This document shows positions 3,469-22,604 of a stretch of 64,000 nucleotides of DNA, in pieces. Every line of letters begins with the position of its first letter. The stretch's first letter is position 1. Position numbers and translations under genes: made by a program. The stretch covers positions 64,001 through 128,000 of the forward strand of contig CAZYCQ010000001.1 of the NCBI GenBank assembly GCA_964645535.1, read 5' to 3'. The DNA comes from an uncultured archaeon. GTDB taxonomy: Archaea; Asgardarchaeota; Heimdallarchaeia; Heimdallarchaeales; Kariarchaeaceae. The notes beneath the pieces are model-generated. The model made no database searches. It saw nothing but the letters and a program-made list of their open reading frames with translations, and was not told where the DNA came from.

Positions 3469-4452
3469 TTAGTTGTCATCTTCATTTGTAGAAACAAACT
3501 CTTCTTCTTCGAAAATTTCCTCTCCGTTCTCATTCTTTTCTTTTTCAGAATCATCTTGAGAAGGTTCAACCTCTTCAACAGATTTCTTATTCTCTTCTTC
3601 CAAAGTTTCAAGTTCGTTTATATCGAAAATATCAGACCAATATTCCTTGTAATTTGGATTGATTTCGACTCCAAAGGCAAATCTCCGATAGCGTTGGGCA
3701 ATACGGACAACCTCACCGGTTCCTGCAAAAGGGTCAAAAATGACATCGCGAGGACAGGACCAAAGTGAAAGAGCTCGTTTTACCAAATGCTCAGAGAATT
3801 GTTCATACAAGGTACCATCAATATCCACTTTTGTAAAACCATCAATAGTCCAGACGGAGTTCAGATAATGAGGACGGCGTTTGCCCTTGCATCTTCTGTT
3901 TTTTTCTCCTCGTTTCAGAACAATGAGGTGCGAATGGATCAGAGAGTTTTGGACATTTGGGGCAAGGTGTATCAACTTTGATTGCGATTTTTCCGGAATG
4001 CTGACAATAATAACTTCATCCCAAAGGTTCCATCCAATTTGTCGTGCAATTGATATGAGATCGCCTACCATGGGGTAATAGCCCGTGATATTTTCTTCTT
4101 CGTCAAGTATGGGATCATTTTGAACAGAAAAGATAGCAAAACCGCCTTCTTTTGTTGCTCTAAATAGACCTTTAAAGATTCTACCCATGAATTCCAAATA
4201 CCCTTCATAGTCTTCCCAAAGCAGACGTCGTTCACCATCACGTTTCTCGACATATATTTTGTCTTTTGGTGTTGGTGGTCTTGTCAATGTCAGAGAAAGA
4301 AGATTCGTAGGAATTTTCCTGATAAAAAACTGTGAATCTCGGATATGGATCTTCCCAAGTAGATATTCCTTTTTCAAGGGTCTGATCCGGAATCTTCTTC
4401 TTCTTTTGCCTCGTGTAACACTTTGCTCTGACATCAATCTCCATTTTTCCAA
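3469..4452 (-). CDS. N4/N6 amino-methyltransferase-like protein (beta-class order) with degenerate catalytic motif
   Basis: C-terminal SAM motif VIFDPFAGTG and GVEINP; catalytic position reads LTRPPT instead of TSPPY/DPPY; basic N-terminus, acidic C-terminal tail. Confidence 0.7.
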   Translation of the reverse strand: MEKWRLMSEQSVTRGKRRRRFRIRPLKKEYLLGKIHIRDSQFFIRKIPTNLLSLTLTRPPTPKDKIYVEKRDGERRLLWEDYEGYLEFMGRIFKGLFRATKEGGFAIFSVQNDPILDEEENITGYYPMVGDLISIARQIGWNLWDEVIIVSIPEKSQSKLIHLAPNVQNSLIHSHLIVLKRGEKNRRCKGKRRPHYLNSVWTIDGFTKVDIDGTLYEQFSEHLVKRALSLWSCPRDVIFDPFAGTGEVVRIAQRYRRFAFGVEINPNYKEYWSDIFDINELETLEEENKKSVEEVEPSQDDSEKEKNENGEEIFEEEEFVSTNEDDN

Positions 4453-4500
4453 TCCTTTTATTAATACATCCGTATGTGTTCGTTCCAGAACCGATTTTAA

Positions 4501-13103: not shown

Positions 13104-13760
13104 TTAGTGTGATTTGTATCTGACCCTTTCATCAATCTTTCGCATACGTTTCAAAATCCTGTGCCCATCCCTTGCAATCTCCAGATATTGGCCAATAAAG
13201 TTGTCCCATGCAGGTGCCCAAACAGTCGGGTGTGTACTTTGAAGGGTTCGGAGCAAAACATTGATGTCAACTGCTTTCTCCTCAATATGACTCGAGAAAA
13301 GCGCCAAACCAAAATCAATCAGGAAGGTCTTTTCTGTCCTGTTTTCAATAACAACATTGGAAGTAGTCAAATCCCCATGAACAATATTCAGATTGTGCAG
13401 TAGAGCCACTTGTCTCCCAAGATCGGACAAGAAATCAATGCCATGCGGAGTTTCAATGATTTCTTTCAAAAGGGTACCATCTATTTTTTGTATGACAACC
13501 GAAGTTTCTTCCTTATCAATGAAAAAGACAAAAGGGACATTAAGTCCATTCTGTTTGGCTTGAACCAGAACCTTTACCTCTCGAATCAATCTAGCATTCC
13601 GAATTGTTTTATCAAGATGGGGGTGACGATATTTCTTGGGGATACGTTGTTTGATGACGATTTTCCGACCCAAATACTCTCCAGAAAAAATCAATGCCTC
13701 AGCATTCTTTGAAATCAACCTTTCTTTTTTTGGTTTTAACTCATTAAGAGAGTATTTCAC
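13104..13760 (-). CDS. bud32: KEOPS complex kinase Bud32 (stand-alone)
   Basis: AEA, KQRIPKKYRHPHLD, VHGDLTTSN, IDFGL, EEKAVD. Confidence 0.92.
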   Translation of the reverse strand: MKYSLNELKPKKERLISKNAEALIFSGEYLGRKIVIKQRIPKKYRHPHLDKTIRNARLIREVKVLVQAKQNGLNVPFVFFIDKEETSVVIQKIDGTLLKEIIETPHGIDFLSDLGRQVALLHNLNIVHGDLTTSNVVIENRTEKTFLIDFGLALFSSHIEEKAVDINVLLRTLQSTHPTVWAPAWDNFIGQYLEIARDGHRILKRMRKIDERVRYKSH

Positions 13761-13817
13761 AGTATTTCAGGACAGTTGCATTTTAAAGAGATGTCGTTAG
13801 GGACATCTAACCTTAAT

Positions 13818-13885
13818 TGATCATTTATTTTGTGCATATGATCATTCATTTTAACTTAATAATGAAAATTCACCAAATGTTTATA
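13818..13885 (+). promoter_or_regulatory. Putative Lrp operator repeats and TATA box
   Basis: TGATCATTTATTTT (13818-13831) and TGATCATTCATTTT (13839-13852), 21 bp apart; TTTATA at 13880 upstream of the Lrp gene. Confidence 0.45.
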
Positions 13886-13921
13886 CAAAATTTAAAAATT
13901 CAATTCAGATGGAGATAGGTA

Positions 13922-14401
13922 ATGACAGGGCTTGATGAGCTCGATAAGCGTCTGATTTATGAATTAAGAATAGATAGTAGAAAAAGCGTGCGTGAACTCG
14001 CAAAATCATTGGCAGAATCGCCAAGCACCATTTATAACAGACGAAAAAGGCTAGAGGACAAAAATATCATAACCCGTTTTTCGGTGAATTTAGATTTCAG
14101 TCAGATTAATCTAGGAAAATCAGTTTATTTTCTTGTGAAGGTTCGATGGGATGACGAAACATCAGCCCATTCAGTGGCAGAAGAATTGAAGAACAAAAAT
14201 TTCGTCTATCAAATATCGTTGATATCTGGACGGTTTGACATCCTATTGAAGGTGAGACTGCCCTCTGTTGATGAAGTGTCGAATTTTGTTTGGAATGAAC
14301 TCAGGAAAATTCCTGGTGTTGAAGAAATTGAACAATTGCAGGTTTTTGAGGAAGTTTTGAAAGAAGAAGATATCTTGGATCCGTTTCAGCATGAAGATTG
14401 A
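13922..14401 (+). CDS. Lrp/AsnC family transcriptional regulator
   Basis: LDELDKRLIYELRIDSRKSVRELA HTH; ISGRFDILLKV RAM domain. Confidence 0.92.
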   Translation: MTGLDELDKRLIYELRIDSRKSVRELAKSLAESPSTIYNRRKRLEDKNIITRFSVNLDFSQINLGKSVYFLVKVRWDDETSAHSVAEELKNKNFVYQISLISGRFDILLKVRLPSVDEVSNFVWNELRKIPGVEEIEQLQVFEEVLKEEDILDPFQHED

Positions 14402-14466
14402 AAATTGATGCCAATTGGAATTTTATCTTAGCCAATATTTTTAATCATAGACTTCTTGGTTTACAT

Positions 14467-14799
14467 ATGGCTGGAAACATTGTCCAAATGGACGATTCGA
14501 ATTATAAGGAGATATTGAAATCCCATCCATTGGTAATTGTGGATACTTGGGCGGAATGGTGCGCCCCATGCAAGGCAATTGCACCTGTTTTTGAAAGATT
14601 GGCCGCACAATATTCAGACAGACTTACATTTGCAAAAGTAAACACCGATGAGAATCTTGATTTTGCAAGATCGTTCAAGGTACTTTCAATTCCTACCTTC
14701 CTCGTTTTCAAGAATGGAGAACTGGTTAACAAATGGTCTGGTGCTAAACCCGAAAAACTTACCAAGGAAGTCAAGAAACTAGCAGAAGACGATAAATAA
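14467..14799 (+). CDS. trxA: Thioredoxin
   Basis: WAEWCAPC active site, SIPT cis-Pro motif; likely start MAGN at 14467. Confidence 0.92.
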   Translation: MAGNIVQMDDSNYKEILKSHPLVIVDTWAEWCAPCKAIAPVFERLAAQYSDRLTFAKVNTDENLDFARSFKVLSIPTFLVFKNGELVNKWSGAKPEKLTKEVKKLAEDDK

Positions 14800-14878
14800 G
14801 TAAAATTTCACAAAAAAAATCAACTTTTTTATCACTTCCAGAATTTTTACACACGAGTGCTTAAATAGTGACAATTGC

Positions 14879-14924
14879 ATATATAAACATAACACCAGAG
14901 AAAAAGTACCACCAACGGTGGTAC
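14879..14924 (+). promoter_or_regulatory. tfb promoter: TATA box plus perfect inverted repeat
   Basis: ATATATAAA at 14879-14887; GTACCACC-AAC-GGTGGTAC at 14906-14924; GGGTGA SD-like before ATG 14940. Confidence 0.55.
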
Positions 14925-14939
14925 ATTTGGGTGATTATC

Positions 14940-15911
14940 ATGAAGGAAACATGTTCTGATTGTGGCAGCACAAAAATCATTGAACGCTATCGTGAGGGAA
15001 CTCTTGTATGCGGTGACTGTGGACTTGTAATTGATCGTATAATCGACACAAGTTCAGAAATAAGAAGTTCCATCAGTTCTACAGGAACCGTGATTGAAAG
15101 GACAGGCAGCCCCATTTCTAACCTGCGACCGGATCTTGGGTTCTCAACTGAGATTGGAAATCAATCAAGGGATGCCTATGGATCCAAATTGACCGTATTG
15201 ACCAGAGAGAGAATGAGAAGACTCAGGTGGTTGAACTCACGGACATCGAAATCTGAGATTAGAAATTTGAGAGTGGCACTGAGAGAGCTCAAACGTCTGG
15301 CTTCTGCACTTCAAATTTCTCAGGACACTGCATCAACTGCATCGATGTATTACAGGAAAGCACTTAAGGCAAAGTTAATTCGTGGACGCTCAATTAATTC
15401 AATGATAGCGGCAGCCGTCTATTTAGCCGCACGAAAGCACAATTTCGCAATTGTCATCAAGGATTTGGAAGAGGTAAGCACTGTCCCCAAGAAAATCATT
15501 GCTCGATGCATGCGGGTCTATATGCAGGAATTGAACATCAAACCAGAACCAACCAATCCTGAGATGATGGTGTCTCGATTGGCAAGTAAGTTGGACATTA
15601 CCCCAGCAACTCAGAAAGAAGCAATCAAGATCCTCAGACAAACAAGGAACAAAAGATTGGATATGGGCAAATCACCTATGTCAATTGCTGCTGCCGCGAT
15701 TTACTTGGCTTGCCTTCGAACTGGTGAACGAAGAACACAGCAGATGGTGGCACAGGCCGCAATGACAACACCAGTAACCTTGAGAAACCGTTATCGAGAA
15801 ATTTCAGAAGCATTGACCATTAATGTCGAAGTGAAAAGAGGAGCCGCTGCAACACCAGTATATTTCAAATCACCATACAAGAAAGAAAAATCAATTTCAA
15901 AGAAAGATTAA
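14940..15911 (+). CDS. tfb: Transcription initiation factor B
   Basis: CSDC...CGDCG zinc ribbon, two cyclin repeats (LIRGRSI..MIAAAVY; GKSPMSIAAAAIY), TLRNRYREI. Confidence 0.95.
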   Translation: MKETCSDCGSTKIIERYREGTLVCGDCGLVIDRIIDTSSEIRSSISSTGTVIERTGSPISNLRPDLGFSTEIGNQSRDAYGSKLTVLTRERMRRLRWLNSRTSKSEIRNLRVALRELKRLASALQISQDTASTASMYYRKALKAKLIRGRSINSMIAAAVYLAARKHNFAIVIKDLEEVSTVPKKIIARCMRVYMQELNIKPEPTNPEMMVSRLASKLDITPATQKEAIKILRQTRNKRLDMGKSPMSIAAAAIYLACLRTGERRTQQMVAQAAMTTPVTLRNRYREISEALTINVEVKRGAAATPVYFKSPYKKEKSISKKD

Positions 15912-15997
15912 GCATATCGGAACAGTTCCTTCACGCTGTCAACAACGAATTACCTTTATATTCGAATATCTTGGATGGGAATGTAAGAGGATTTACC

Positions 15998-16795
15998 ATG
16001 GATGTATTTGCAATTGCAACACAAAAACCAATTACCTGCAAGCCCACAGAAATATTGGGAAATGCAGTCGTCACGATGTCGTCCAAAAAGTTCAGAAGGT
16101 TACCCGTCGTTGTTGATGAACAACTTGTCGGGATTTTGACTGCCAATGATGTGTTGAATGCACTTAAAAATGAAGGATTGGAATGTCTCAAGAATCCAGT
16201 TAAGCAGTATATGGTGCTGGATCCCATCGCAGTAACCAAGGAAACACCCTTGGGTGAAGCAACTACAATAATGTTTGAACATGGCTTTGGTGGTCTCCCC
16301 ATTGTTTCTGATTATGAAACCTACATTTTGGTAGGCATCATTACTGAGCGAGATCTTGTTAAAGAGTTTGTACACAAGATAGTAGATGCCAACCTTTCTG
16401 ATTTTGTTGCAGAACCAATAACTGTTAACTTTTCGAGGTCAAAGTTACGAAAGGTAATTGAAAAGATGACTGAAGAAAGAACAAGTAGGGTAATTCTAAC
16501 AGGATCAAAAAATTCACTCAAGGGAATAATTTCCTCTTCTGACATTCTTAAGTTAGTTGCAGACAAATACATCCGGGAACAGCTCGAGGAGGATATTCTT
16601 AACTTACCCGCCAAGGAATTGGCTGCGACAAAATTAGTCACGGCTAATATCAATTGGTCTGTCAAAGAGGTCGCAGATCTATTGACAAAATATAATTTTG
16701 GAGGAGTACCAGTAGTTGATGATAATGGCAATCTTGTCGGGATTTTTTCCGAAAGAGACCTCCTTCAAATAATTGGATTGTATGGGTTGTTTTAG
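15998..16795 (+). CDS. CBS-domain protein (four CBS repeats)
   Basis: RRLPVV..LVGILT, GGLPIV..VGIITERD, KGIISSSD, GGVPVV..VGIFSERD. Confidence 0.9.
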   Translation: MDVFAIATQKPITCKPTEILGNAVVTMSSKKFRRLPVVVDEQLVGILTANDVLNALKNEGLECLKNPVKQYMVLDPIAVTKETPLGEATTIMFEHGFGGLPIVSDYETYILVGIITERDLVKEFVHKIVDANLSDFVAEPITVNFSRSKLRKVIEKMTEERTSRVILTGSKNSLKGIISSSDILKLVADKYIREQLEEDILNLPAKELAATKLVTANINWSVKEVADLLTKYNFGGVPVVDDNGNLVGIFSERDLLQIIGLYGLF

Positions 16796-16797
16796 AG

Positions 16798-17463
16798 GTG
16801 GATCATTCATCGTTTATGGAACAAGTGCGAAATAAATTAGCGAACAGAAAAGAGAGACTTGTCAATCGTAACAATTTGAATGATCCTAAGGAAGGAGCTG
16901 TTTTGTTTCCTCTCCTTTATGCACCAGATGAGGAAATCCATCTTCTTTTGGTGAAACGTTCAAACCAAATGAGAAATAACCCAGGAGACATGGCATTTCC
17001 AGGGGGTAAACTGGATCTAGGAGAGACACCAATTGAAGGAGCATTAAGAGAAGCCGAAGAGGAAGTGGGAATTAAACCTAACCAAGTCAAAATACTGGGA
17101 ACCATGGATGAATATGTTTCGAGGAATCATACCGTCGTGCGGGCAGTTGTTGGAGCAATTGAAGTCAATCCCTCAGGAAATTTAAGAGAATGGGCAGAGA
17201 GGGTTTTTGCCCCAAAAACAGAAGAAAATTTAGTGACGCTGGTGATTCCACTCTCACACTTTCTGAATCCACAAGTCTATTCTTCTAAAAAATATATTGG
17301 ATCGAATAATCGAGTGGGATATATTCGCTATTTTGATATTTCCGAATATCTCCCAACAGAAAAAGTTTGGGGACTTACCGCCACGATCATCAGAAGGTTT
17401 GCAGATTTATTTTTTGCACACCAGCTACCTGAAGAGCCTTTGACTCAAGGAATCCAATCATAA
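16798..17463 (+). CDS. Nudix hydrolase, CoA pyrophosphatase type
   Basis: LLVKRS..MR..PGDMAFPGG plus Nudix box GALREAEEEVG; VWGLTA. Confidence 0.88.
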   Translation: MDHSSFMEQVRNKLANRKERLVNRNNLNDPKEGAVLFPLLYAPDEEIHLLLVKRSNQMRNNPGDMAFPGGKLDLGETPIEGALREAEEEVGIKPNQVKILGTMDEYVSRNHTVVRAVVGAIEVNPSGNLREWAERVFAPKTEENLVTLVIPLSHFLNPQVYSSKKYIGSNNRVGYIRYFDISEYLPTEKVWGLTATIIRRFADLFFAHQLPEEPLTQGIQS

Positions 17464-18494
17464 ATCAATTTTTCACCGGTTTGGATATATTGGAATTTGA
17501 CATCTCTTATTTTAAGCAATAGCTGTTCCTGTTCTTGTTTTTCAGGGATAATTTCATTCAAGAGGGTTTTTCCGCTTATAATGGAGGCAATTCCTGCACT
17601 AGAGAGTGAATAGGAAGAATCTCCTTTTGCGATAGCATTTGGATTTTCCTCACCAGTTAAAAGAAGACGATTGTAGTAATCTGGATGAGCTGAAAGAATA
17701 CTGAACCCATGGTGAGGTCTGAAGGACTCTGGATCTTTAATGACCGTATTGAATGCATCTATGGCGGCCTTATTGGGAAGGAAAATATTCCTTGAGATTA
17801 CCCCCCGTAACATTGCCTGGATGGAATATGCCTCTTCAATAATCGAAAATGGGATCATCGTAATAAGTTCATTTATTGTACTTCCATGAATATCTCCCTC
17901 AAAAATAGGAGGTGCATTCATCAACTTTTCAAAATGATCCATGGGAAGAAGGATCATATTAATTTCCCTTACATTCGTAATGAATTTTCCCTTATCCAAA
18001 CTGAATTCAGTGAAGAGTATGCCAGGCCCTGAGATCATGGCCAATTGAACACCCAATTTGTCCTGAACGATTTCAATTTCATTGTTCAGCATGATAATTG
18101 TATCCTTTCGGATTTCAACAACCGGACGATTCAAATAGAAGCCCAAGGTTTTCTTTTCAAGAAGGGCAGACCAAGATGGAATAATCAGCAAGGAATTGAG
18201 GTTCTTCTTTTCAATTTCTCTTAGACGAGCCAATTTCAGTTCTTTGTCAATTCTTTTGATCTCTTCATCGATCGTGTTTATTATTTCATCTACGTTTGTA
18301 GCAAATTGCCTTTTGGGAAAGCCGAAATCACTCATGAATAAAAGCAGATCACGAATGGAGAATTCGCCAAGATCCATTTCATCGAACCGATCTGTGCTAC
18401 TATAATAATATCGTAACAACTCTAGTAGCCTTTTTGTGCGAAGTGCATCTTGGTATGAATCTGTTTTCTCTATGTCTAACGGGATGACATCCAC
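17445..18494 (-). CDS. Hypothetical soluble protein, co-oriented downstream of the SNARE-like gene
   Basis: 349-aa ORF with GTG start preceded by SD-like TAGGAG; short coiled coil near the N-terminus; no family recognised. Confidence 0.7.
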   Translation of the reverse strand: MDVIPLDIEKTDSYQDALRTKRLLELLRYYYSSTDRFDEMDLGEFSIRDLLLFMSDFGFPKRQFATNVDEIINTIDEEIKRIDKELKLARLREIEKKNLNSLLIIPSWSALLEKKTLGFYLNRPVVEIRKDTIIMLNNEIEIVQDKLGVQLAMISGPGILFTEFSLDKGKFITNVREINMILLPMDHFEKLMNAPPIFEGDIHGSTINELITMIPFSIIEEAYSIQAMLRGVISRNIFLPNKAAIDAFNTVIKDPESFRPHHGFSILSAHPDYYNRLLLTGEENPNAIAKGDSSYSLSSAGIASIISGKTLLNEIIPEKQEQEQLLLKIRDVKFQYIQTGEKLIYDWIP

Positions 18495-18555
18495 CTCCTA
18501 TTTATTTTGGTTTCCTTCCTTTTATCATTACCCACAGGGATTAATAGATTTGAAA

Positions 18556-19284
18556 TCACTTCACCATCCCACTAAGCATTACGGTGGAAATCGCAGTGAT
18601 TGCAATCAAGATTATTACCCGATTTCCAGTAATTTTCCTACTTACCTCCTTGATAAGCTTCTGCGCTTTATCCAATTTGCTATCAAGGACATCAACTTTT
18701 TCATCAATTCCCCTGATTATTACACCCTGTTCCTCCAATTGACCTGCCATGTTATCTAGAGAGTTTTTGATCAATCCTATTTGGGCAGTTAATTGGCTCA
18801 TTGCCTCAGCAATATTGCTTTCCATCTGATTCATCCGTTCCTCCACCTTTTTGATGGCTTCATCCTCTTTACCTCCAGCCTCAAGCTTTACTAGATTGAG
18901 ATATGCATCACCTATTTCCTCATAATTTTGACGCGAGGTTCGCAATGCAATATCTAATTTCGCAATTGAATCTTCAAGGGCAGCCAAGGTGGATTTGTTC
19001 CGTCGTATTTTTTTTAGTCTTTCCTCTTCCTGTTTGATTTCAGCCGGCTTGATAAACGAGGGCAGTGTCGATTTCAGCCTCCCAAATCCCCCGCGTTTTT
19101 CCTTGAGTGTTTCCGAATATGATTCATCGAATTCCTCAAATACTTCCTTCATTGACCCAACTATGTCCTTCAATTCCGTCAGTGTTTCTTCGATGAGATC
19201 ATCAGTTGTATCCTTTCGGCTTAGCTTCTCCCCTATTTTTTTAATAAGAGACTTTTTGCTCTTTTTCTTATGGGTAGCACTCAT
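18556..19284 (-). CDS. Tail-anchored Q-SNARE-like (syntaxin-like) protein
   Basis: Heptad motif with central Gln186 (MAGQLEEQGVIIRGIDEKV); hydrophobic residues at layers -7 to +8; basic linker and terminal TM helix; helical N-terminus. Confidence 0.8.
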   Translation of the reverse strand: MSATHKKKSKKSLIKKIGEKLSRKDTTDDLIEETLTELKDIVGSMKEVFEEFDESYSETLKEKRGGFGRLKSTLPSFIKPAEIKQEEERLKKIRRNKSTLAALEDSIAKLDIALRTSRQNYEEIGDAYLNLVKLEAGGKEDEAIKKVEERMNQMESNIAEAMSQLTAQIGLIKNSLDNMAGQLEEQGVIIRGIDEKVDVLDSKLDKAQKLIKEVSRKITGNRVIILIAITAISTVMLSGMVK

Positions 19285-19419
19285 CTGATAGATTTAGGAA
19301 GGAACGATAATAAAACGTTCCTAATTTGAACCACGCTTTTTTCCACACTTGCGATGATATTTCACAAGTTATTACTTTGCTACATAGAGTTTTTAATCGT
19401 CTTTTGGGACACTTGTCTT

Positions 19420-21651
19420 GTGGAATTTCCACCATACCAAAATGATTTTGCATTTAGCCTTCCACATGAAAGGTTTCTTGGAAGTTGTAAAGTCAATGAA
19501 ATAAACTATGACCTTTTATTAATGGAGATTCCAGTCCTAATTCTTTTTTTGAGCTTTTTCCAATTCATTTCTTTGCCTTTCAGAATATTTACTGCAACAA
19601 TTGTTTTTCTGCTCACAACACCTTTTGTATTTAGAAAGTGGCATTTTGAGTTGACAAACAAACGTTTGGTTGTTCGTAGATGGTTTGCTGGACTTGAAAG
19701 ATTTCTTTCTTGGATATCCATTAAACTTTCAATGATTGAAACACTGGAAACATCTCCGAGAATTAAAGCTGGACCGCTCCTACTAGGATATTGGATTCTC
19801 ACATCTTATGCCTTGCCACTGATAGAGTTTGGGTTAAGTGGAGAAATCCCTCTCCCATTTGCCGTCAAGCTTGCTTTTTTTCTTGGATTGTATTCATCGA
19901 CTGTTGAAGGGTATGAGGAAGATTTTACACACATATTCATTGAACCGATTTTTGAAACCTTTGCCGATGTTTCCTTGATGGCAGGGACAGTCATGCTGAT
20001 CATTGGTTTGTTTCTTTTCTTGGCAGGATTGCCATATAGAAAGGAGTTCAGATTGATAACTATTTCTGGACATAGTTTTTCTGTCCGTACGGGTCTTCCA
20101 AATGACTTTTTATTTCTCTTGGATGGAATTATGCGGAAACATCACATACAGGGAGAATTTGAAAATGAAGTTCACTTTCCGAAACTTATTGATGAAGAAC
20201 TGAAAGCCAAAGGCAGATTGGGTCTAATAGATAGAAAGAATCAGTTGATTGGATTACTTTCCCTCATTATGTTTGTTAGAGGGTTCGCAAATCTCTTAAG
20301 CAGGTTACAAAATGCTGATCAAAGAGATGTCATTTTTCTTTTTCTGAATCTAATTGATTTTCTTCTCATTCTATTTTTAATTGTTTTTGCCAAAAGATTT
20401 CAGAAGATATGGGCAACAAACCACAGAATAATTTTTCAGGACGAACGAAGAGGAATATCTGGCCTATGGGGAAGAAGGATTTTCACATATCGTGATCTAC
20501 CGTTTTCACAAATCCAAGGGTTCAAGGTTTCCTATTACTCCGGATTTTCGCCTTACTCATTATATTTTGGAGTGGGAATCCTCTTGGCAATTCAAGCGAT
20601 TGCCACATCACTTGCGGTTAAATTACCTTCCAGCCCACATTTTTTGATCTATTCAGTTGGGGTTATTATTGCCGGTCTGTATCTTCTATTGAATTTCCGG
20701 ACATTTGGTGAGTTGACCCTATTTTCATTGGGTGGAAGAGTACATCGCTTAAGATTCAGAACTCCCTATATTGTATCCAAATTGTCACATAGACTCGAAG
20801 GAAAAGAAGGATTGGCCGAAAAATTCTTTCCAAATCTTTTGAGTGATGCGGAAATTCAGAAAATATGCAATGTAATTAGAGGATACAATGAACCAAAAAG
20901 ACCTTTGACAAAAAGGGAACATTATCTTGATGCATTTAGTTTTATAGGTAAAGATGAAAAAATACTTTTCAGCGTCGAGAAAATAAAACCCCATCCATTT
21001 TATTGGCTTTTTGCGATCGTATTCATTCTATCTGGTGTTACAGTGATTTATGTCTTCATGGTTCTTTTTGAGAAATTTGATTTTCCCAGTGTGGTTGCAT
21101 CAGGAATTCTGATTGCATCAACTTTATTTCTTCTTGTTCGAACTGTTGCATTTGCCATCATTAAAAGAAAATCCCTTATTCTAACTGAAGACCGATTAAT
21201 TGACCAATCTGAAACAAATCCAACCAAGTTGGCCAAATGGCTGGGATATTTGCCAATATGGGAACTTCGAGAAGTCAGAAATGACTTTGTAACTTCAATA
21301 AGACAGCAAATATTGTTTCATAGGTTCAGGCCTAAAGGTATCTTTTCCTTAGTGCTAATCTCCCTCTTTTCGGTCAAGATTGTTGTTCTCCTTGATTATC
21401 CATATTCTTCTTTTGACAGGAATCCTGTTTTTATTGTCCTGATGCTTTCACCATTTTTGTTGATTTCTTCCATCAACCATTTCCTGTTGGCACTTATGGA
21501 AACCATTCCCCGTTATGGACTCAAAATAGAAACACGAAAATTTACATTATCATACTCTCATTTCCCAAAATCAAAGCAGTTCGAACAGATTTTTTATCAA
21601 GCAGTAAGGAATCGAAACACCTACAATCAAATGATTAGGGAGGGACTATGA
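19420..21651 (+). CDS. Polytopic membrane protein with three PH-like (bPH/YdbS-type) repeats
   Basis: Repeats FELTNKRLVV, IWATNHRIIF and LILTEDRLID, each with TM hairpins; likely GTG start at 19420 after TTTTTAAT. Confidence 0.65.
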   Translation: MEFPPYQNDFAFSLPHERFLGSCKVNEINYDLLLMEIPVLILFLSFFQFISLPFRIFTATIVFLLTTPFVFRKWHFELTNKRLVVRRWFAGLERFLSWISIKLSMIETLETSPRIKAGPLLLGYWILTSYALPLIEFGLSGEIPLPFAVKLAFFLGLYSSTVEGYEEDFTHIFIEPIFETFADVSLMAGTVMLIIGLFLFLAGLPYRKEFRLITISGHSFSVRTGLPNDFLFLLDGIMRKHHIQGEFENEVHFPKLIDEELKAKGRLGLIDRKNQLIGLLSLIMFVRGFANLLSRLQNADQRDVIFLFLNLIDFLLILFLIVFAKRFQKIWATNHRIIFQDERRGISGLWGRRIFTYRDLPFSQIQGFKVSYYSGFSPYSLYFGVGILLAIQAIATSLAVKLPSSPHFLIYSVGVIIAGLYLLLNFRTFGELTLFSLGGRVHRLRFRTPYIVSKLSHRLEGKEGLAEKFFPNLLSDAEIQKICNVIRGYNEPKRPLTKREHYLDAFSFIGKDEKILFSVEKIKPHPFYWLFAIVFILSGVTVIYVFMVLFEKFDFPSVVASGILIASTLFLLVRTVAFAIIKRKSLILTEDRLIDQSETNPTKLAKWLGYLPIWELREVRNDFVTSIRQQILFHRFRPKGIFSLVLISLFSVKIVVLLDYPYSSFDRNPVFIVLMLSPFLLISSINHFLLALMETIPRYGLKIETRKFTLSYSHFPKSKQFEQIFYQAVRNRNTYNQMIREGL

Positions 21652-22604
21652 TCATGAATTGGGATGCCAAGCTAAAAGTGGTAATTTTTGGGAAATACGA
21701 TCTCAAGAGTATTTTTGAAAAGCATAGAATTCCTGGAGAAAGGCTAATCGCAGAACAAGACATCCTATATTATTCTGAAATTCCCCTGTTCCTTGCTTTA
21801 ATTATAGGGATTGTATCTCTTTTCCTCTCTTTGTTGCTGGATCCCATTTTTCTTGTTGGAATACCAATAATAATTCTAATTACGTATTTTTCCATTTCAA
21901 TGGAGTTTGTGTTTCTCACCGACGAAAGGATTCTTATTGAGAGAAGGTATCTGCTGGATAAAATACTATCAACCCGGACAATAATAAACATTGCATTGGA
22001 TCAGATCTCTATTGTAGAGTCAGGAAGAGCGCCTCCTAATTGGCCAGTTTCATTTGTCACTATGGGAACCCTCCTTTTATCTGTCTTTTCAGCCATGATT
22101 ACTTCCAATGTTTTTACCAAGTTAATATGGGGATATGTAGGATTAATTTCAACATTCATCTTGATTTATTCGTTACGACTATTCAGACGAGCAGTTTCAT
22201 TATTTGTTGTTGGAAGTAGACTTCCTATTGTAATTGGTGCAAGAAAAGGGATATCTGTGTATTGGGTGAAGAAACTTCATGAAACATTGTTTGAACGAAT
22301 TCACCACGTAGAACATATTTATTCATCTCACAAGGAACTTGACACCAAAATCAATGAATTCCCGTTGGAACTTCCCCAAAATCTCAAGAAAGTATTGGTC
22401 AATCTTTCACAAAATGTGGAAAAAGAGATATACAAACTACTTTATTTCGAGCCCCGAACAAAGAAAGAATTGTACTCTGAATTAGAAGATTTCGACAATC
22501 ATCTAATTGATAATGGCCTATCCCATCTCTCCAAGGAAGGGATGATTGTATATGACCGGAGCAGAAGAGTCTGGACAATTACTGGAAAGGTCCCAAATTC
22601 ATAG
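21648..22604 (+). CDS. Membrane protein with one PH-like repeat and a C-terminal winged helix
   Basis: VFLTDERILI..IALDQISIVE; 4 TMs; C-terminal EKEIYKLL..RTKKEL..LSHLSKEGMI..W; ATGA overlap with the upstream gene. Confidence 0.65.
   Translation: MIMNWDAKLKVVIFGKYDLKSIFEKHRIPGERLIAEQDILYYSEIPLFLALIIGIVSLFLSLLLDPIFLVGIPIIILITYFSISMEFVFLTDERILIERRYLLDKILSTRTIINIALDQISIVESGRAPPNWPVSFVTMGTLLLSVFSAMITSNVFTKLIWGYVGLISTFILIYSLRLFRRAVSLFVVGSRLPIVIGARKGISVYWVKKLHETLFERIHHVEHIYSSHKELDTKINEFPLELPQNLKKVLVNLSQNVEKEIYKLLYFEPRTKKELYSELEDFDNHLIDNGLSHLSKEGMIVYDRSRRVWTITGKVPNS

What the first reader, a model, noticed from the sequence alone, without database searches (positions are those of the whole stretch)
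18556..19284. Archaeal tail-anchored Q-SNARE with a complete 16-layer register
Seen: counting from Gln186 (codon 18729-18727), layers -7 to -1 are M,L,I,I,L,M,L and +1 to +8 are I,I,V,L,L,A,I,V. A short basic linker (SRKITGNR) and a terminal TM helix follow, with no signal peptide. Known: this is the SNARE motif/linker/TM layout, and NMAGQLEEQGVIIRGIDEKV resembles the syntaxin consensus DMAxLVExQGxxIDxIExNV. SNARE-like proteins have been reported from Heimdallarchaeota. Inference: the ~160-aa helical N-terminus may be an Habc-like regulatory bundle, making this a syntaxin-like prototype rather than a bare coiled coil.
Basis: partly seen in the sequence, partly recalled or inferred. Interest (0 to 1): 0.9.

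Follow-up and report, generated by a model that had tools for sequence, protein, structure and literature searches.

The report
Known Heimdall-archaeal SNARE protein, another copy

Summary
Window 18556-19284 (-) is a 242-aa ORF. Counting from Gln186, all 15 other SNARE layers are hydrophobic, and no other centre in the protein gives 15/15. An 8-residue linker and a terminal TM helix follow.

It is 48% identical over its full length (E 1e-62) to OLS22354.1, the HPS2 protein of Heimdallarchaeota LC_2. Neveu et al. characterised HPS2 biochemically. Its relative HPS1 was crystallised in 2026 as a parallel homotetrameric 16-layer bundle with four Gln at layer 0.

The best solved-structure match is the syntaxin-6 (Qc) SNARE motif, with Gln aligned to Gln (E 1.5e-4). 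The register is gap-free in 28 family representatives (Q 25, H 3). The gene is single-copy in this genome.

The "syntaxin-like, Habc" part is not shown. The family is not Qa-type, and the N-terminal fold was inconclusive.

Two additions:
- An unannotated 349-aa gene lies within 3 kb of the SNARE gene in all 13 genomes of two families, in three arrangements. That family is much more widespread than the SNARE.
- The SNARE was not found in 31 genomes of the family that I infer to be Heimdallarchaeaceae.

This scan had already noted the same family in at least 11 other genomes.

The parts
18556..19284 (-). Whole ORF, 242 aa plus stop: Heimdall-type prototypic SNARE, Kari clade
   Evidence: 48% identity, E 1.3e-62 to OLS22354.1 (HPS2); tree
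19207..19284 (-). aa 1-26: basic, Lys-rich N-terminal tail, predicted disordered
   Evidence: pLDDT below 50 for residues 1-25; variable length among homologues
18877..19206 (-). aa 27-136: helical N-terminal region. Model helices are 27-64 and 81-136. Family-wide loop signals lie at 70-80, 118-125 and 134-138.
   Evidence: conserved LP(S)F motif with P75. A three-helix-bundle fold is not established.
18643..18801 (-). aa 162-214: SNARE motif, layers -7 to +8
   Evidence: aligned to the syntaxin-6 SNARE motif 2nps_D
18727..18729 (-). Codon of Gln186, the 0-layer residue
   Evidence: Q in 25/28 and H in 3/28 family representatives; aligned to the 0-layer Gln of syntaxin-6
18619..18642 (-). aa 215-222: juxtamembrane linker SRKITGNR. 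TGNR is invariant in the 13 closest homologues.
18562..18618 (-). aa 223-241: single C-terminal transmembrane helix (tail anchor), followed only by K242
   Evidence: Kyte-Doolittle 2.46 over 19 residues; the only such segment
19308..19315 (-). TTTTATTA, a TATA-box-like element at -31 to -24 from the ATG (inferred archaeal promoter with little or no leader)
   Evidence: Read from the sequence. A similar A/T box lies at about -34 to -24 in 7 Kari-clade loci. The promoter role is an inference.
17445..18494 (-). Linked 349-aa gene of unknown function, 61 nt downstream on the same strand. Binding to the SNARE is not shown.
   Evidence: Within 3 kb of the SNARE gene in 13/13 genomes of families f1 and f4, in three arrangements. 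Confident model (pLDDT 86.7) with no fold or family match.

Best explanation
The gene encodes a Heimdall prototypic SNARE (HPS family, Kari clade), the single SNARE-like protein of this Asgard archaeon.

Shown here: it has the family's full architecture. This comprises a basic tail, a helical N-terminal region of about 110 aa, a 53-residue SNARE motif with 15 hydrophobic layers around Gln186, a short basic linker and a C-terminal tail anchor.

Inferred from the published relatives: four copies zipper N- to C-terminally into a very stable parallel homotetrameric four-helix bundle. Its centre is a ring of four Gln (a 4Q layer), not the eukaryotic 3Q:1R layer.

Inferred further, and unproven for any family member: the protein is inserted post-translationally into membranes, and an ArsA/Get3-family ATPase is encoded in the genome. 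Bundles formed between molecules in apposed membranes would then tether or fuse them (vesicle-like compartments or protrusions). The helical N-terminal region may gate assembly. A Cdc48-like AAA ATPase, not NSF, would have to recycle the bundle.
For: - Full-length homology to HPS2 (OLS22354.1): 48% identity, 95% coverage, E 1.3e-62. SNARE-motif identity is 65%.
- In a maximum-likelihood tree the protein sits with its genus-level relatives as sister to the clade holding HPS2 and proteins named Kariarchaeaceae.
- The layer register is unique to Q186 and gap-free in 28 representatives.
- The top PDB hit, by three orders of magnitude, is the syntaxin-6 SNARE motif with the 0-layer in register.
- The family profile, searched against 1.84 billion representatives, returns 31 proteins. 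Marginal hits P0051, P0052, P0053 and P0055 pass Pfam thresholds for V-SNARE_C, V-SNARE or SNARE.
- There is one copy in the 89%-complete genome.
- The family is present in 37 of 400 genomes of the phylum, all in the same class. It occurs in five families (10/11, 1/1, 3/3, 20/22, 2/2), so it is a vertically kept gene.
- Literature: HPS1 and HPS2 motifs are helical, melt only above 90 C and bind neuronal SNAREs. HPS1 is a homotetramer by SEC-MALS and in a 2.4 A crystal structure with 16 layers and four Q183. Full-length HPS1 localises to the ER in human cells (10.1101/810531; 10.64898/2026.10.19.760048).
- An ArsA/Get3-family gene lies at G000:C4:8357-9295 (288 bits).
Against: - Pfam SNARE-type models are well below their curated cut-offs for this protein (PF05739 10.4 bits vs 26.8; PF12352 13.9 vs 27.1). 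Generic coiled-coil families score equally or better.
- Oligomeric state was not tested for this protein. For its closest characterised relative, HPS2, the preprint gives only an apparent SEC mass of about 70 kDa.
- No fusion or tethering activity has been shown for any family member.
- A parallel homotetramer of tail-anchored chains could equally form in cis within one membrane.
- The ArsA family search also rings in all 14 control genomes, so it is not specific evidence for a GET pathway.
Confidence: 0.85

Rival explanations
1. It is a true HPS-family protein, but its cellular role is not membrane fusion. The parallel homotetramer forms in cis and acts as a membrane scaffold, an oligomerisation platform or an anchor for other proteins such as the linked 349-aa protein.
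For: No fusion activity has been shown for any family member, and murine NSF does not disassemble the complex. There is a single gene per genome, so no vesicle/target asymmetry. The bundles are extremely stable, above 90 C, and would be hard to recycle. The family I infer to be Heimdallarchaeaceae (31 genomes, two of them closed) lacks it altogether, so it is dispensable within the class.
Against: The 16-layer core, layer volumes and juxtamembrane linker plus TM layout match fusogenic SNAREs. Vesicle-like structures are reported in cultivated Heimdallarchaeia according to the preprint.
Confidence: 0.3
2. It is a generic tail-anchored coiled-coil protein whose likeness to SNAREs is convergent: heptad hydrophobicity plus one polar core residue.
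For: At the single-sequence Pfam level, ATG17_like, Fez1 and DUF1664 outrank SNARE models, and none reaches threshold. Across 28 members DUF1664 (12) and Baculo_PEP_C (11) hit as often as SNARE (11) and V-SNARE_C (11). NCBIfam gives only Rad50/SMC-type coiled-coil noise.
Against: Among 177,635 PDB sequences the only significant hit is a SNARE motif, aligned in register with Gln on Gln. The family profile's first hits outside the family are proteins passing Pfam SNARE thresholds. Motif length, linker length and TM position are all SNARE-like and conserved gap-free. The HPS1 crystal structure was solved by molecular replacement with syntaxin-6 and superposes on SNARE complexes.
Confidence: 0.04
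3. It is a eukaryotic SNARE present through contamination of the assembly or recent transfer from a eukaryote, as for the Legionellales SNAREs.
For: Bacterial SNAREs acquired from eukaryotes exist.
Against: The gene lies inside a long archaeal contig next to TFB, a RIO-type kinase, CBS and NUDIX genes. It has an archaeal-type TATA-like box. It is single-copy and present in 37 genomes of five related families, with a tree that separates the Hod and Kari groups. It is only about 20-28% identical to any human SNARE.
Confidence: 0.01

Closest known systems
HPS2 (OLS22354.1, HeimC2_29900, Ca. Heimdallarchaeota archaeon LC_2), a Heimdallarchaeota prototypic SNARE (Neveu et al., bioRxiv 10.1101/810531; Bentahar et al., bioRxiv 10.64898/2026.10.19.760048)
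   Same: Nearly the same length (241 vs 242 aa). Same architecture: helical N-terminal region, 16-layer motif with Gln at layer 0, TGNR linker and tail anchor. 48% identity overall and 65% in the motif. Same (Kari) clade.
   Different: Different genus. The window's lineage has I/I/V/L at layers +1 to +4 where HPS2 has L/I/I/L, and a slightly longer loop at residues 134-138. The linked 349-aa gene is tandem downstream here but divergent in LC_2, with a 142-aa gene between.
HPS1 (PWI47941.1, archaeon B3-JM-08), crystallised as a homotetramer
   Same: Same family and layer register. Gln at layer 0 (Q183 there). The Hod-type cluster P0032, which has F155 and Q183 like HPS1, aligns gap-free over the motif.
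   Different: It belongs to the other major clade (Hod), with only about 26% overall and 44% motif identity to this protein. The tetramer structure is therefore an inference for this protein, not a result.
Human syntaxin-6 SNARE motif (Qc-SNARE, PDB 2NPS chain D)
   Same: 61 aligned residues covering layers -7 to +8, with LEEQ matched to LEEQ and the 0-layer Gln in register. E 1.5e-4 and 1.9e-4 with the family profile.
   Different: Syntaxin-6 works in a heteromeric Qa/Qb/Qc/R complex with a 3Q:1R layer and has a defined N-terminal three-helix domain. This protein is the only SNARE-like gene of its genome. Published trees place the family outside all four eukaryotic classes.
Syntaxin-1-type Qa-SNAREs with an Habc domain
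   Same: Overall layout: helical N-terminal region, SNARE motif, short basic linker, tail anchor.
   Different: No Qa SNARE appears among PDB sequence hits even at E<=10. No Qa N-terminal family appears among the best Pfam rows. There is no long flexible linker between the N-terminal helices and the motif, because the helix runs on from about residue 139 into the motif. No SM protein is known in Asgard genomes.

Membership tests
Heimdall prototypic SNARE (HPS) family | Full-length sequence homology to HPS1/HPS2 | tested here: met
   48% identity, 95% coverage, E 1.3e-62 to OLS22354.1 = HPS2; clusters in the Kari clade
Heimdall prototypic SNARE (HPS) family | 53-residue SNARE motif with 16 layers and a polar (Gln) 0-layer | tested here: met
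   15/15 hydrophobic layers around Q186, unique register; conserved gap-free in 28 representatives, Q 25 / H 3
Heimdall prototypic SNARE (HPS) family | Tail-anchor topology: one C-terminal TM helix after a short linker, no signal peptide | tested here: met
   TM 223-241, one residue after it, linker of 8 residues, hydrophilic N-terminus
Heimdall prototypic SNARE (HPS) family | Helical N-terminal extension, proposed to be a three-helix bundle | tested here: inconclusive
   Helices 27-64 and 81-136 in a low-confidence model (pLDDT 58.5). Loop signals at 70-80, 118-125 and 134-138. Only generic helical-bundle matches.
Heimdall prototypic SNARE (HPS) family | Host in Heimdallarchaeia; usually one gene per genome | tested here: met
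   Named homologues are Heimdallarchaeota/Kariarchaeaceae/Hodarchaeales. All 37 positive genomes lie in the same class. One copy in the own genome.
Heimdall prototypic SNARE (HPS) family | Stable parallel homotetrameric four-helix bundle | not tested
   Known for HPS1 only.
Eukaryotic SNARE superfamily (Pfam PF05739 SNARE, PF12352 V-SNARE_C, PF03908 Sec20) | Score above the Pfam gathering threshold | tested here: not met
   PF05739 10.4 bits (cut-off 26.8), PF12352 13.9 (27.1), PF03908 11.9 (27). 11 of 28 family members reach E<=0.01 for PF05739, best 1.6e-5.
Eukaryotic SNARE superfamily (Pfam PF05739 SNARE, PF12352 V-SNARE_C, PF03908 Sec20) | Significant sequence similarity to a solved SNARE motif with the 0-layer in register | tested here: met
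   2nps_D syntaxin-6, E 1.5e-4, residues 159-219 on 18-78, Gln on Gln. Family profile E 1.9e-4. Profile hits P0051/52/53/55 pass Pfam SNARE-type cut-offs.
Eukaryotic SNARE superfamily (Pfam PF05739 SNARE, PF12352 V-SNARE_C, PF03908 Sec20) | Heteromeric Qa/Qb/Qc/R set with a 3Q:1R 0-layer | tested here: not met
   Only one SNARE-like gene in the genome. The other weak hits are TM-less generic coiled coils. No R-type member among 28 representatives.
Syntaxin (Qa-SNARE) with Habc domain | Qa-type motif and Syntaxin-type N-terminal domain | tested here: inconclusive
   No Qa SNARE among PDB hits at E<=10. Only sub-threshold hits to Qc/Qb-type N-domains (PF09177 E 0.24, PF05008 E 0.11). I did not run a subtype phylogeny against eukaryotic SNAREs; published trees place the family outside Qa.

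The most novel reading that the evidence does not exclude
In the Kariarchaeaceae-type family and a sister family of the same order, the SNARE works with the linked 349-aa protein. That protein belongs to an Asgard-restricted family with a confidently predicted fold for which no match was found. It would be a dedicated regulator, adaptor or recycling factor, an archaeal functional counterpart of SM, tether or SNAP-type factors, none of which is known in Asgard genomes.
Probability: 0.12. Interest if true: 0.75.

Novelty: already known. Interest (0 to 1): 0.27.

Why it matters
SNAREs drive nearly all intracellular membrane fusion in eukaryotes. An archaeal single-gene, homotetrameric precursor bears directly on how the endomembrane system arose. 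That point has already been made and structurally documented by Neveu et al. and Bentahar et al., and this gene is one more orthologue.

What this window adds is modest:
- A hot-spring Kari-clade member with a fully canonical register.
- A gene pair (SNARE plus a 349-aa protein of unknown fold) that stays together through rearrangements in two families.
- Evidence that the family I infer to be Heimdallarchaeaceae, including closed genomes, lacks a detectable SNARE. This qualifies the published statement that the gene is conserved across all Heimdall subgroups.

Tried and rejected
- **Complex prediction.** SNARE cytosolic part (1-222, alignment A2) against the 349-aa neighbour (A3): no verdict. 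Score 0.08 against a mark of 0.32, and controls were not run. This is neither support nor evidence against binding.
- **Expression.** One DNA holder (hot-springs metagenome) and no RNA holder were listed. Read laying was therefore not used, and co-transcription is untested.
- **SNARE monomer fold.** Foldseek against PDB gave no match at E<=0.001. The VIA second look gave only generic four-helix bundles; the best was a de novo maquette, Z 14.4, rmsd 2.7 over 179 residues. The model (pLDDT 58.5) folds the motif back at the 0-layer, which I take as a monomer artefact.
- **349-aa protein.** All of these drew blanks:
  - Pfam, and NCBIfam.
  - Foldseek against PDB: best E 0.055.
  - VIA wide: best Z 7.7, covering only the N-terminal helical hairpin 4-98.
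  - Atlas by shape: TM 0.27 or less by query.
  - Atlas by features: 0.81, which is chance level.
  - The roughly 600-670-aa relatives in other Asgard families also have no Pfam domain.
- **Paralogues in the own genome.** The three weak hits (E 0.03-0.35) are coiled-coil proteins without a TM helix. One pair carries C-terminal winged-helix-like ends.
- **A divergent SNARE in family f3.** Nothing lies next to the 349-aa homologue in two genomes. At E<=1 only 12-18-bit fragments appear in five genomes. A tail-anchored 283-aa neighbour there is a JAMM/MPN-type protein, not a SNARE.
- **The divergent 765-aa / 318-aa membrane gene pair as part of a conserved locus.** tblastn found no homologue near the SNARE in L005-L008.

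Full report
**1. The observation**

Window 18556-19284 on the minus strand is an ATG-initiated ORF of 242 codons. Residue 186 is Gln, codon 18729-18727. I applied the canonical SNARE spacing: offsets -24, -21, -17, -14, -10, -7, -3 and +4, +7, +11, +14, +18, +21, +25, +28.

One third of the soluble part is hydrophobic, so 15/15 in a fixed register has a probability of about 7e-8. When every residue is tried as the centre, only Q186 reaches 15; the next best reach 13.

The linker SRKITGNR (215-222) leads into the only hydrophobic segment of the protein (223-241), which is followed by one residue. The N-terminus is Lys-rich and hydrophilic.

**2. What it is**

A search of 5.8 billion proteins found 13 relatives, all 240-253 aa long. 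One of them, at 48% identity over 95% of the length (E 1.3e-62), is OLS22354.1, HeimC2_29900 of Ca. Heimdallarchaeota archaeon LC_2. This is the protein that Neveu et al. call HPS2 (bioRxiv 10.1101/810531).

That paper found SNARE-like tail-anchored proteins in Heimdallarchaeota with eukaryotic SNARE subtype HMMs. It showed that the motifs of HPS1 and HPS2 form complexes with neuronal SNAREs. It noted that the closest human SNARE is syntaxin-6 (20-28% identity) and placed the family outside Qa, Qb, Qc and R.

A 2026 preprint from the same laboratory (10.64898/2026.10.19.760048) extends this:
- HPS1 and HPS2 motifs unfold only above 90 C.
- HPS1 is a homotetramer by SEC-MALS.
- A 2.4 A crystal structure shows a parallel four-helix bundle with 16 layers and four Q183 at layer 0.
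- Full-length HPS1 localises to the ER in human cells.
- About 50 family members are now known, in 'Kari', 'Hod' and 'Heimdall' clades, usually one per genome.

In my maximum-likelihood tree of 28 representatives, the window's protein groups with its genus-level relatives and P0011. That group is sister to the clade containing HPS2 and proteins that NCBI names Kariarchaeaceae. The Hod-type sequences form the other major branch, with 100/100 support.

**3. Independent tests of SNARE homology**

- **Pfam does not recognise this protein.** SNARE, V-SNARE_C and Sec20 score 10-14 bits against cut-offs near 27. Generic coiled-coil families rank higher.
- **Pfam across the family is equivocal.** Of 28 members, 11 reach E<=0.01 for PF05739 and 11 for PF12352. 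DUF1664 (12) and Baculo_PEP_C (11) do as well.
- **The solved-structure search is clearer.** Among 177,635 PDB sequences the single significant hit is the SNARE motif of syntaxin-6 (2NPS chain D, E 1.5e-4). It covers residues 159-219, with LEEQ on LEEQ. The next hit has E 0.15. The family profile gives the same result.
- **The exhaustive profile search agrees.** Against 1.84 billion representatives it returned only 31 proteins, 20 of them at E<=1e-10. Marginal hits P0051, P0052, P0053 and P0055 pass Pfam's own thresholds for V-SNARE_C, V-SNARE N-terminus or SNARE.
- **The register is conserved.** In the 28-sequence alignment the 16 layer columns contain no gaps. The 0-layer is Q in 25 and H in 3. 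Every other layer is aliphatic or Met/Phe, with rare Thr or Cys.

The first two are answered in favour of a SNARE. The third holds only at the Pfam single-sequence level.

**4. Distribution and copy number**

The own genome (3.6 Mb, 176 contigs, 89% complete) has one copy. The three weak secondary hits are TM-less coiled coils.

Among 400 genomes of the phylum, 37 have the gene, and all 37 lie in the same class. They fall in five families: 10/11 in the own family, then 1/1, 3/3, 20/22 and 2/2.

Family f3, which is in the same order, has 0 of 31. One of its closed genomes has a contig of 3,081,793 bp. That is the length recorded for the contig carrying a protein named Ca. Heimdallarchaeum aukensis, so I infer that f3 is Heimdallarchaeaceae. 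Relaxing the search to E<=1 in five f3 genomes gave only 12-18-bit fragments. Another family of the class, f7, has 0 of 12.

This qualifies the preprint's statement that the gene is conserved across the recognised Heimdall subgroups. Naming differences between taxonomies may explain part of the discrepancy.

**5. The N-terminal region**

AlphaFold2 with 13 sequences gave a low-confidence monomer (pLDDT 58.5) with helices 27-64, 81-136, 140-185 and 193-241. It resembles single-chain up-down four-helix bundles (Z 14.4 to a de novo maquette; no Foldseek match at E<=0.001). This means the motif is folded back at the 0-layer and the TM helix is packed in. I regard that as an artefact of folding a SNARE alone.

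Family-wide proline/glycine and indel positions put loops at 18-26, 70-80 (invariant P75), 118-125 and 134-138. This is compatible with two long helices and one short one before a helix that runs uninterrupted from about residue 139 into the motif.

Sub-threshold Pfam hits to the N-terminal domains of Vti1 (E 0.11) and syntaxin-6/10 (E 0.24) are leads only. An Habc-like bundle is therefore possible, and the authors of the family also propose one, but I could not show it. Nothing points to the Qa (syntaxin-1) type specifically.

**6. Surroundings**

A TTTTATTA box lies 31-24 nt upstream of the ATG. Similar A/T boxes lie at about -34 to -24 in seven Kari-clade loci. This fits an archaeal TATA box with a short or absent leader; the promoter role is an inference.

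Sixty-one nucleotides downstream on the same strand lies a 349-aa ORF (17445-18494). It has no Pfam or NCBIfam match.

This gene is the only neighbour that stays with the SNARE in distant orthologous loci (SNARE identity 45-50%). Combining the two phylum-wide searches, the two genes lie within 3 kb in all 13 genomes of families f1 and f4 in which both were found. There are three arrangements:
- Tandem, SNARE then 349: the own genus G000, G053 and G054. In G055 two genes are inserted between them.
- Divergent: G045, G047, G049, G050, G051 and G052, and also LC_2.
- Tandem, 349 then SNARE: the three f4 genomes.

Against a dedicated partnership:
- In the Hod-type family f5 the genes are unlinked.
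- f3 keeps the 349-aa gene at E near 1e-150 without any SNARE.
- The family or its core domain occurs in 194 of 400 genomes, including proteins of about 600-700 aa in other Asgard families.

The protein's model is confident (pLDDT 86.7, pTM 0.80). No library gave a convincing fold match. Neither SNARE paper mentions gene neighbourhood. The linkage is a real regularity, but its meaning is open.

The divergent 765-aa and 318-aa membrane genes are not conserved beside the SNARE.

**7. Mechanism, with its status**

- *Shown here:* family membership, register, topology, single copy and lineage.
- *Inferred from HPS1/HPS2 experiments:* assembly into a very stable parallel homotetramer with a 4Q centre.
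- *Inferred from general SNARE knowledge, and untested for any member:* post-translational insertion, trans-assembly that tethers or fuses membranes, gating by the N-terminal helices, and recycling by a Cdc48-like ATPase. On insertion, an ArsA/Get3-family gene is present, but that family search is unspecific. On recycling, murine NSF does not disassemble the complex.

A cis-acting scaffold role is the main rival.

**8. Verdict**

The core interpretation, an archaeal tail-anchored Q-SNARE of the Heimdall type, is also correct. The syntaxin/Habc refinement is not supported as stated. The family is already published, biochemically characterised and crystallised, and this scan has noted it in at least 11 other genomes with the same conclusion.

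Novelty: already known. Interest is low to moderate, and rests on the linked 349-aa gene and the patchy distribution.

Noticed in passing
window 17445-18494 (-): A 349-aa gene with no family or fold match stays within 3 kb of the SNARE gene in 13/13 genomes of two families, in three arrangements. It is unlinked in the Hod-type family and present without a SNARE in family f3. The family occurs in 194/400 genomes of the phylum.
   Followed up: partly
genomes G011-G041 (family f3) and G080-G091 (family f7); loci L021, L022: No Heimdall-type SNARE in 0/31 and 0/12 genomes of two families of the same class, including closed genomes. f3 appears to be Heimdallarchaeaceae, by a contig-length match to Ca. 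Heimdallarchaeum aukensis. This is at odds with the statement that the gene is conserved across all Heimdall subgroups.
   Followed up: partly
proteins P0012, P0029, P0034 (alignment A2): Three of 28 family representatives carry His instead of Gln at the 0-layer, in different branches of the tree.
   Followed up: partly
G078:C473:2993-3694 and 3760-4473 (both -): Two SNARE genes lie in tandem, 66 nt apart, in one genome of family f6. This is a local duplication of the kind the 2026 preprint mentions for two assemblies.
   Followed up: no
window 19308-19315 (-); loci L007, L009, L010, L011, L013, L016: A TATA-box-like A/T element lies at about -34 to -24 from the SNARE start codon and is conserved in Kari-clade loci. 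This suggests a short or absent 5' leader.
   Followed up: partly
window 19354-21651 (+) and 21648-22604 (+): A divergently oriented pair of overlapping genes (765 and 318 aa). The 765-aa product is visibly multi-pass hydrophobic. Neither has a Pfam match at E<=0.001, and no homologue lies near the SNARE in the distant loci L005-L008.
   Followed up: partly
L021:10400-11251 (-): In the genome I infer to be Ca. Heimdallarchaeum aukensis, a 283-aa protein combines a JAMM/MPN-like motif (HTHPGYG) with a C-terminal tail anchor.
   Followed up: no
window 13104-16795: Ordinary archaeal context: a RIO-type kinase (13104-13760, -), TFIIB/TFB (14868-15911, +) and a four-CBS-domain protein (15971-16795, +). 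A NUDIX hydrolase (16798-17463, +) overlaps the 3' end of the 349-aa gene convergently by 19 nt.
   Followed up: no
window 17400-19400: The only public run holding this stretch is a hot-springs metagenome from 2018, probably the source sample. No RNA run was listed.
   Followed up: no
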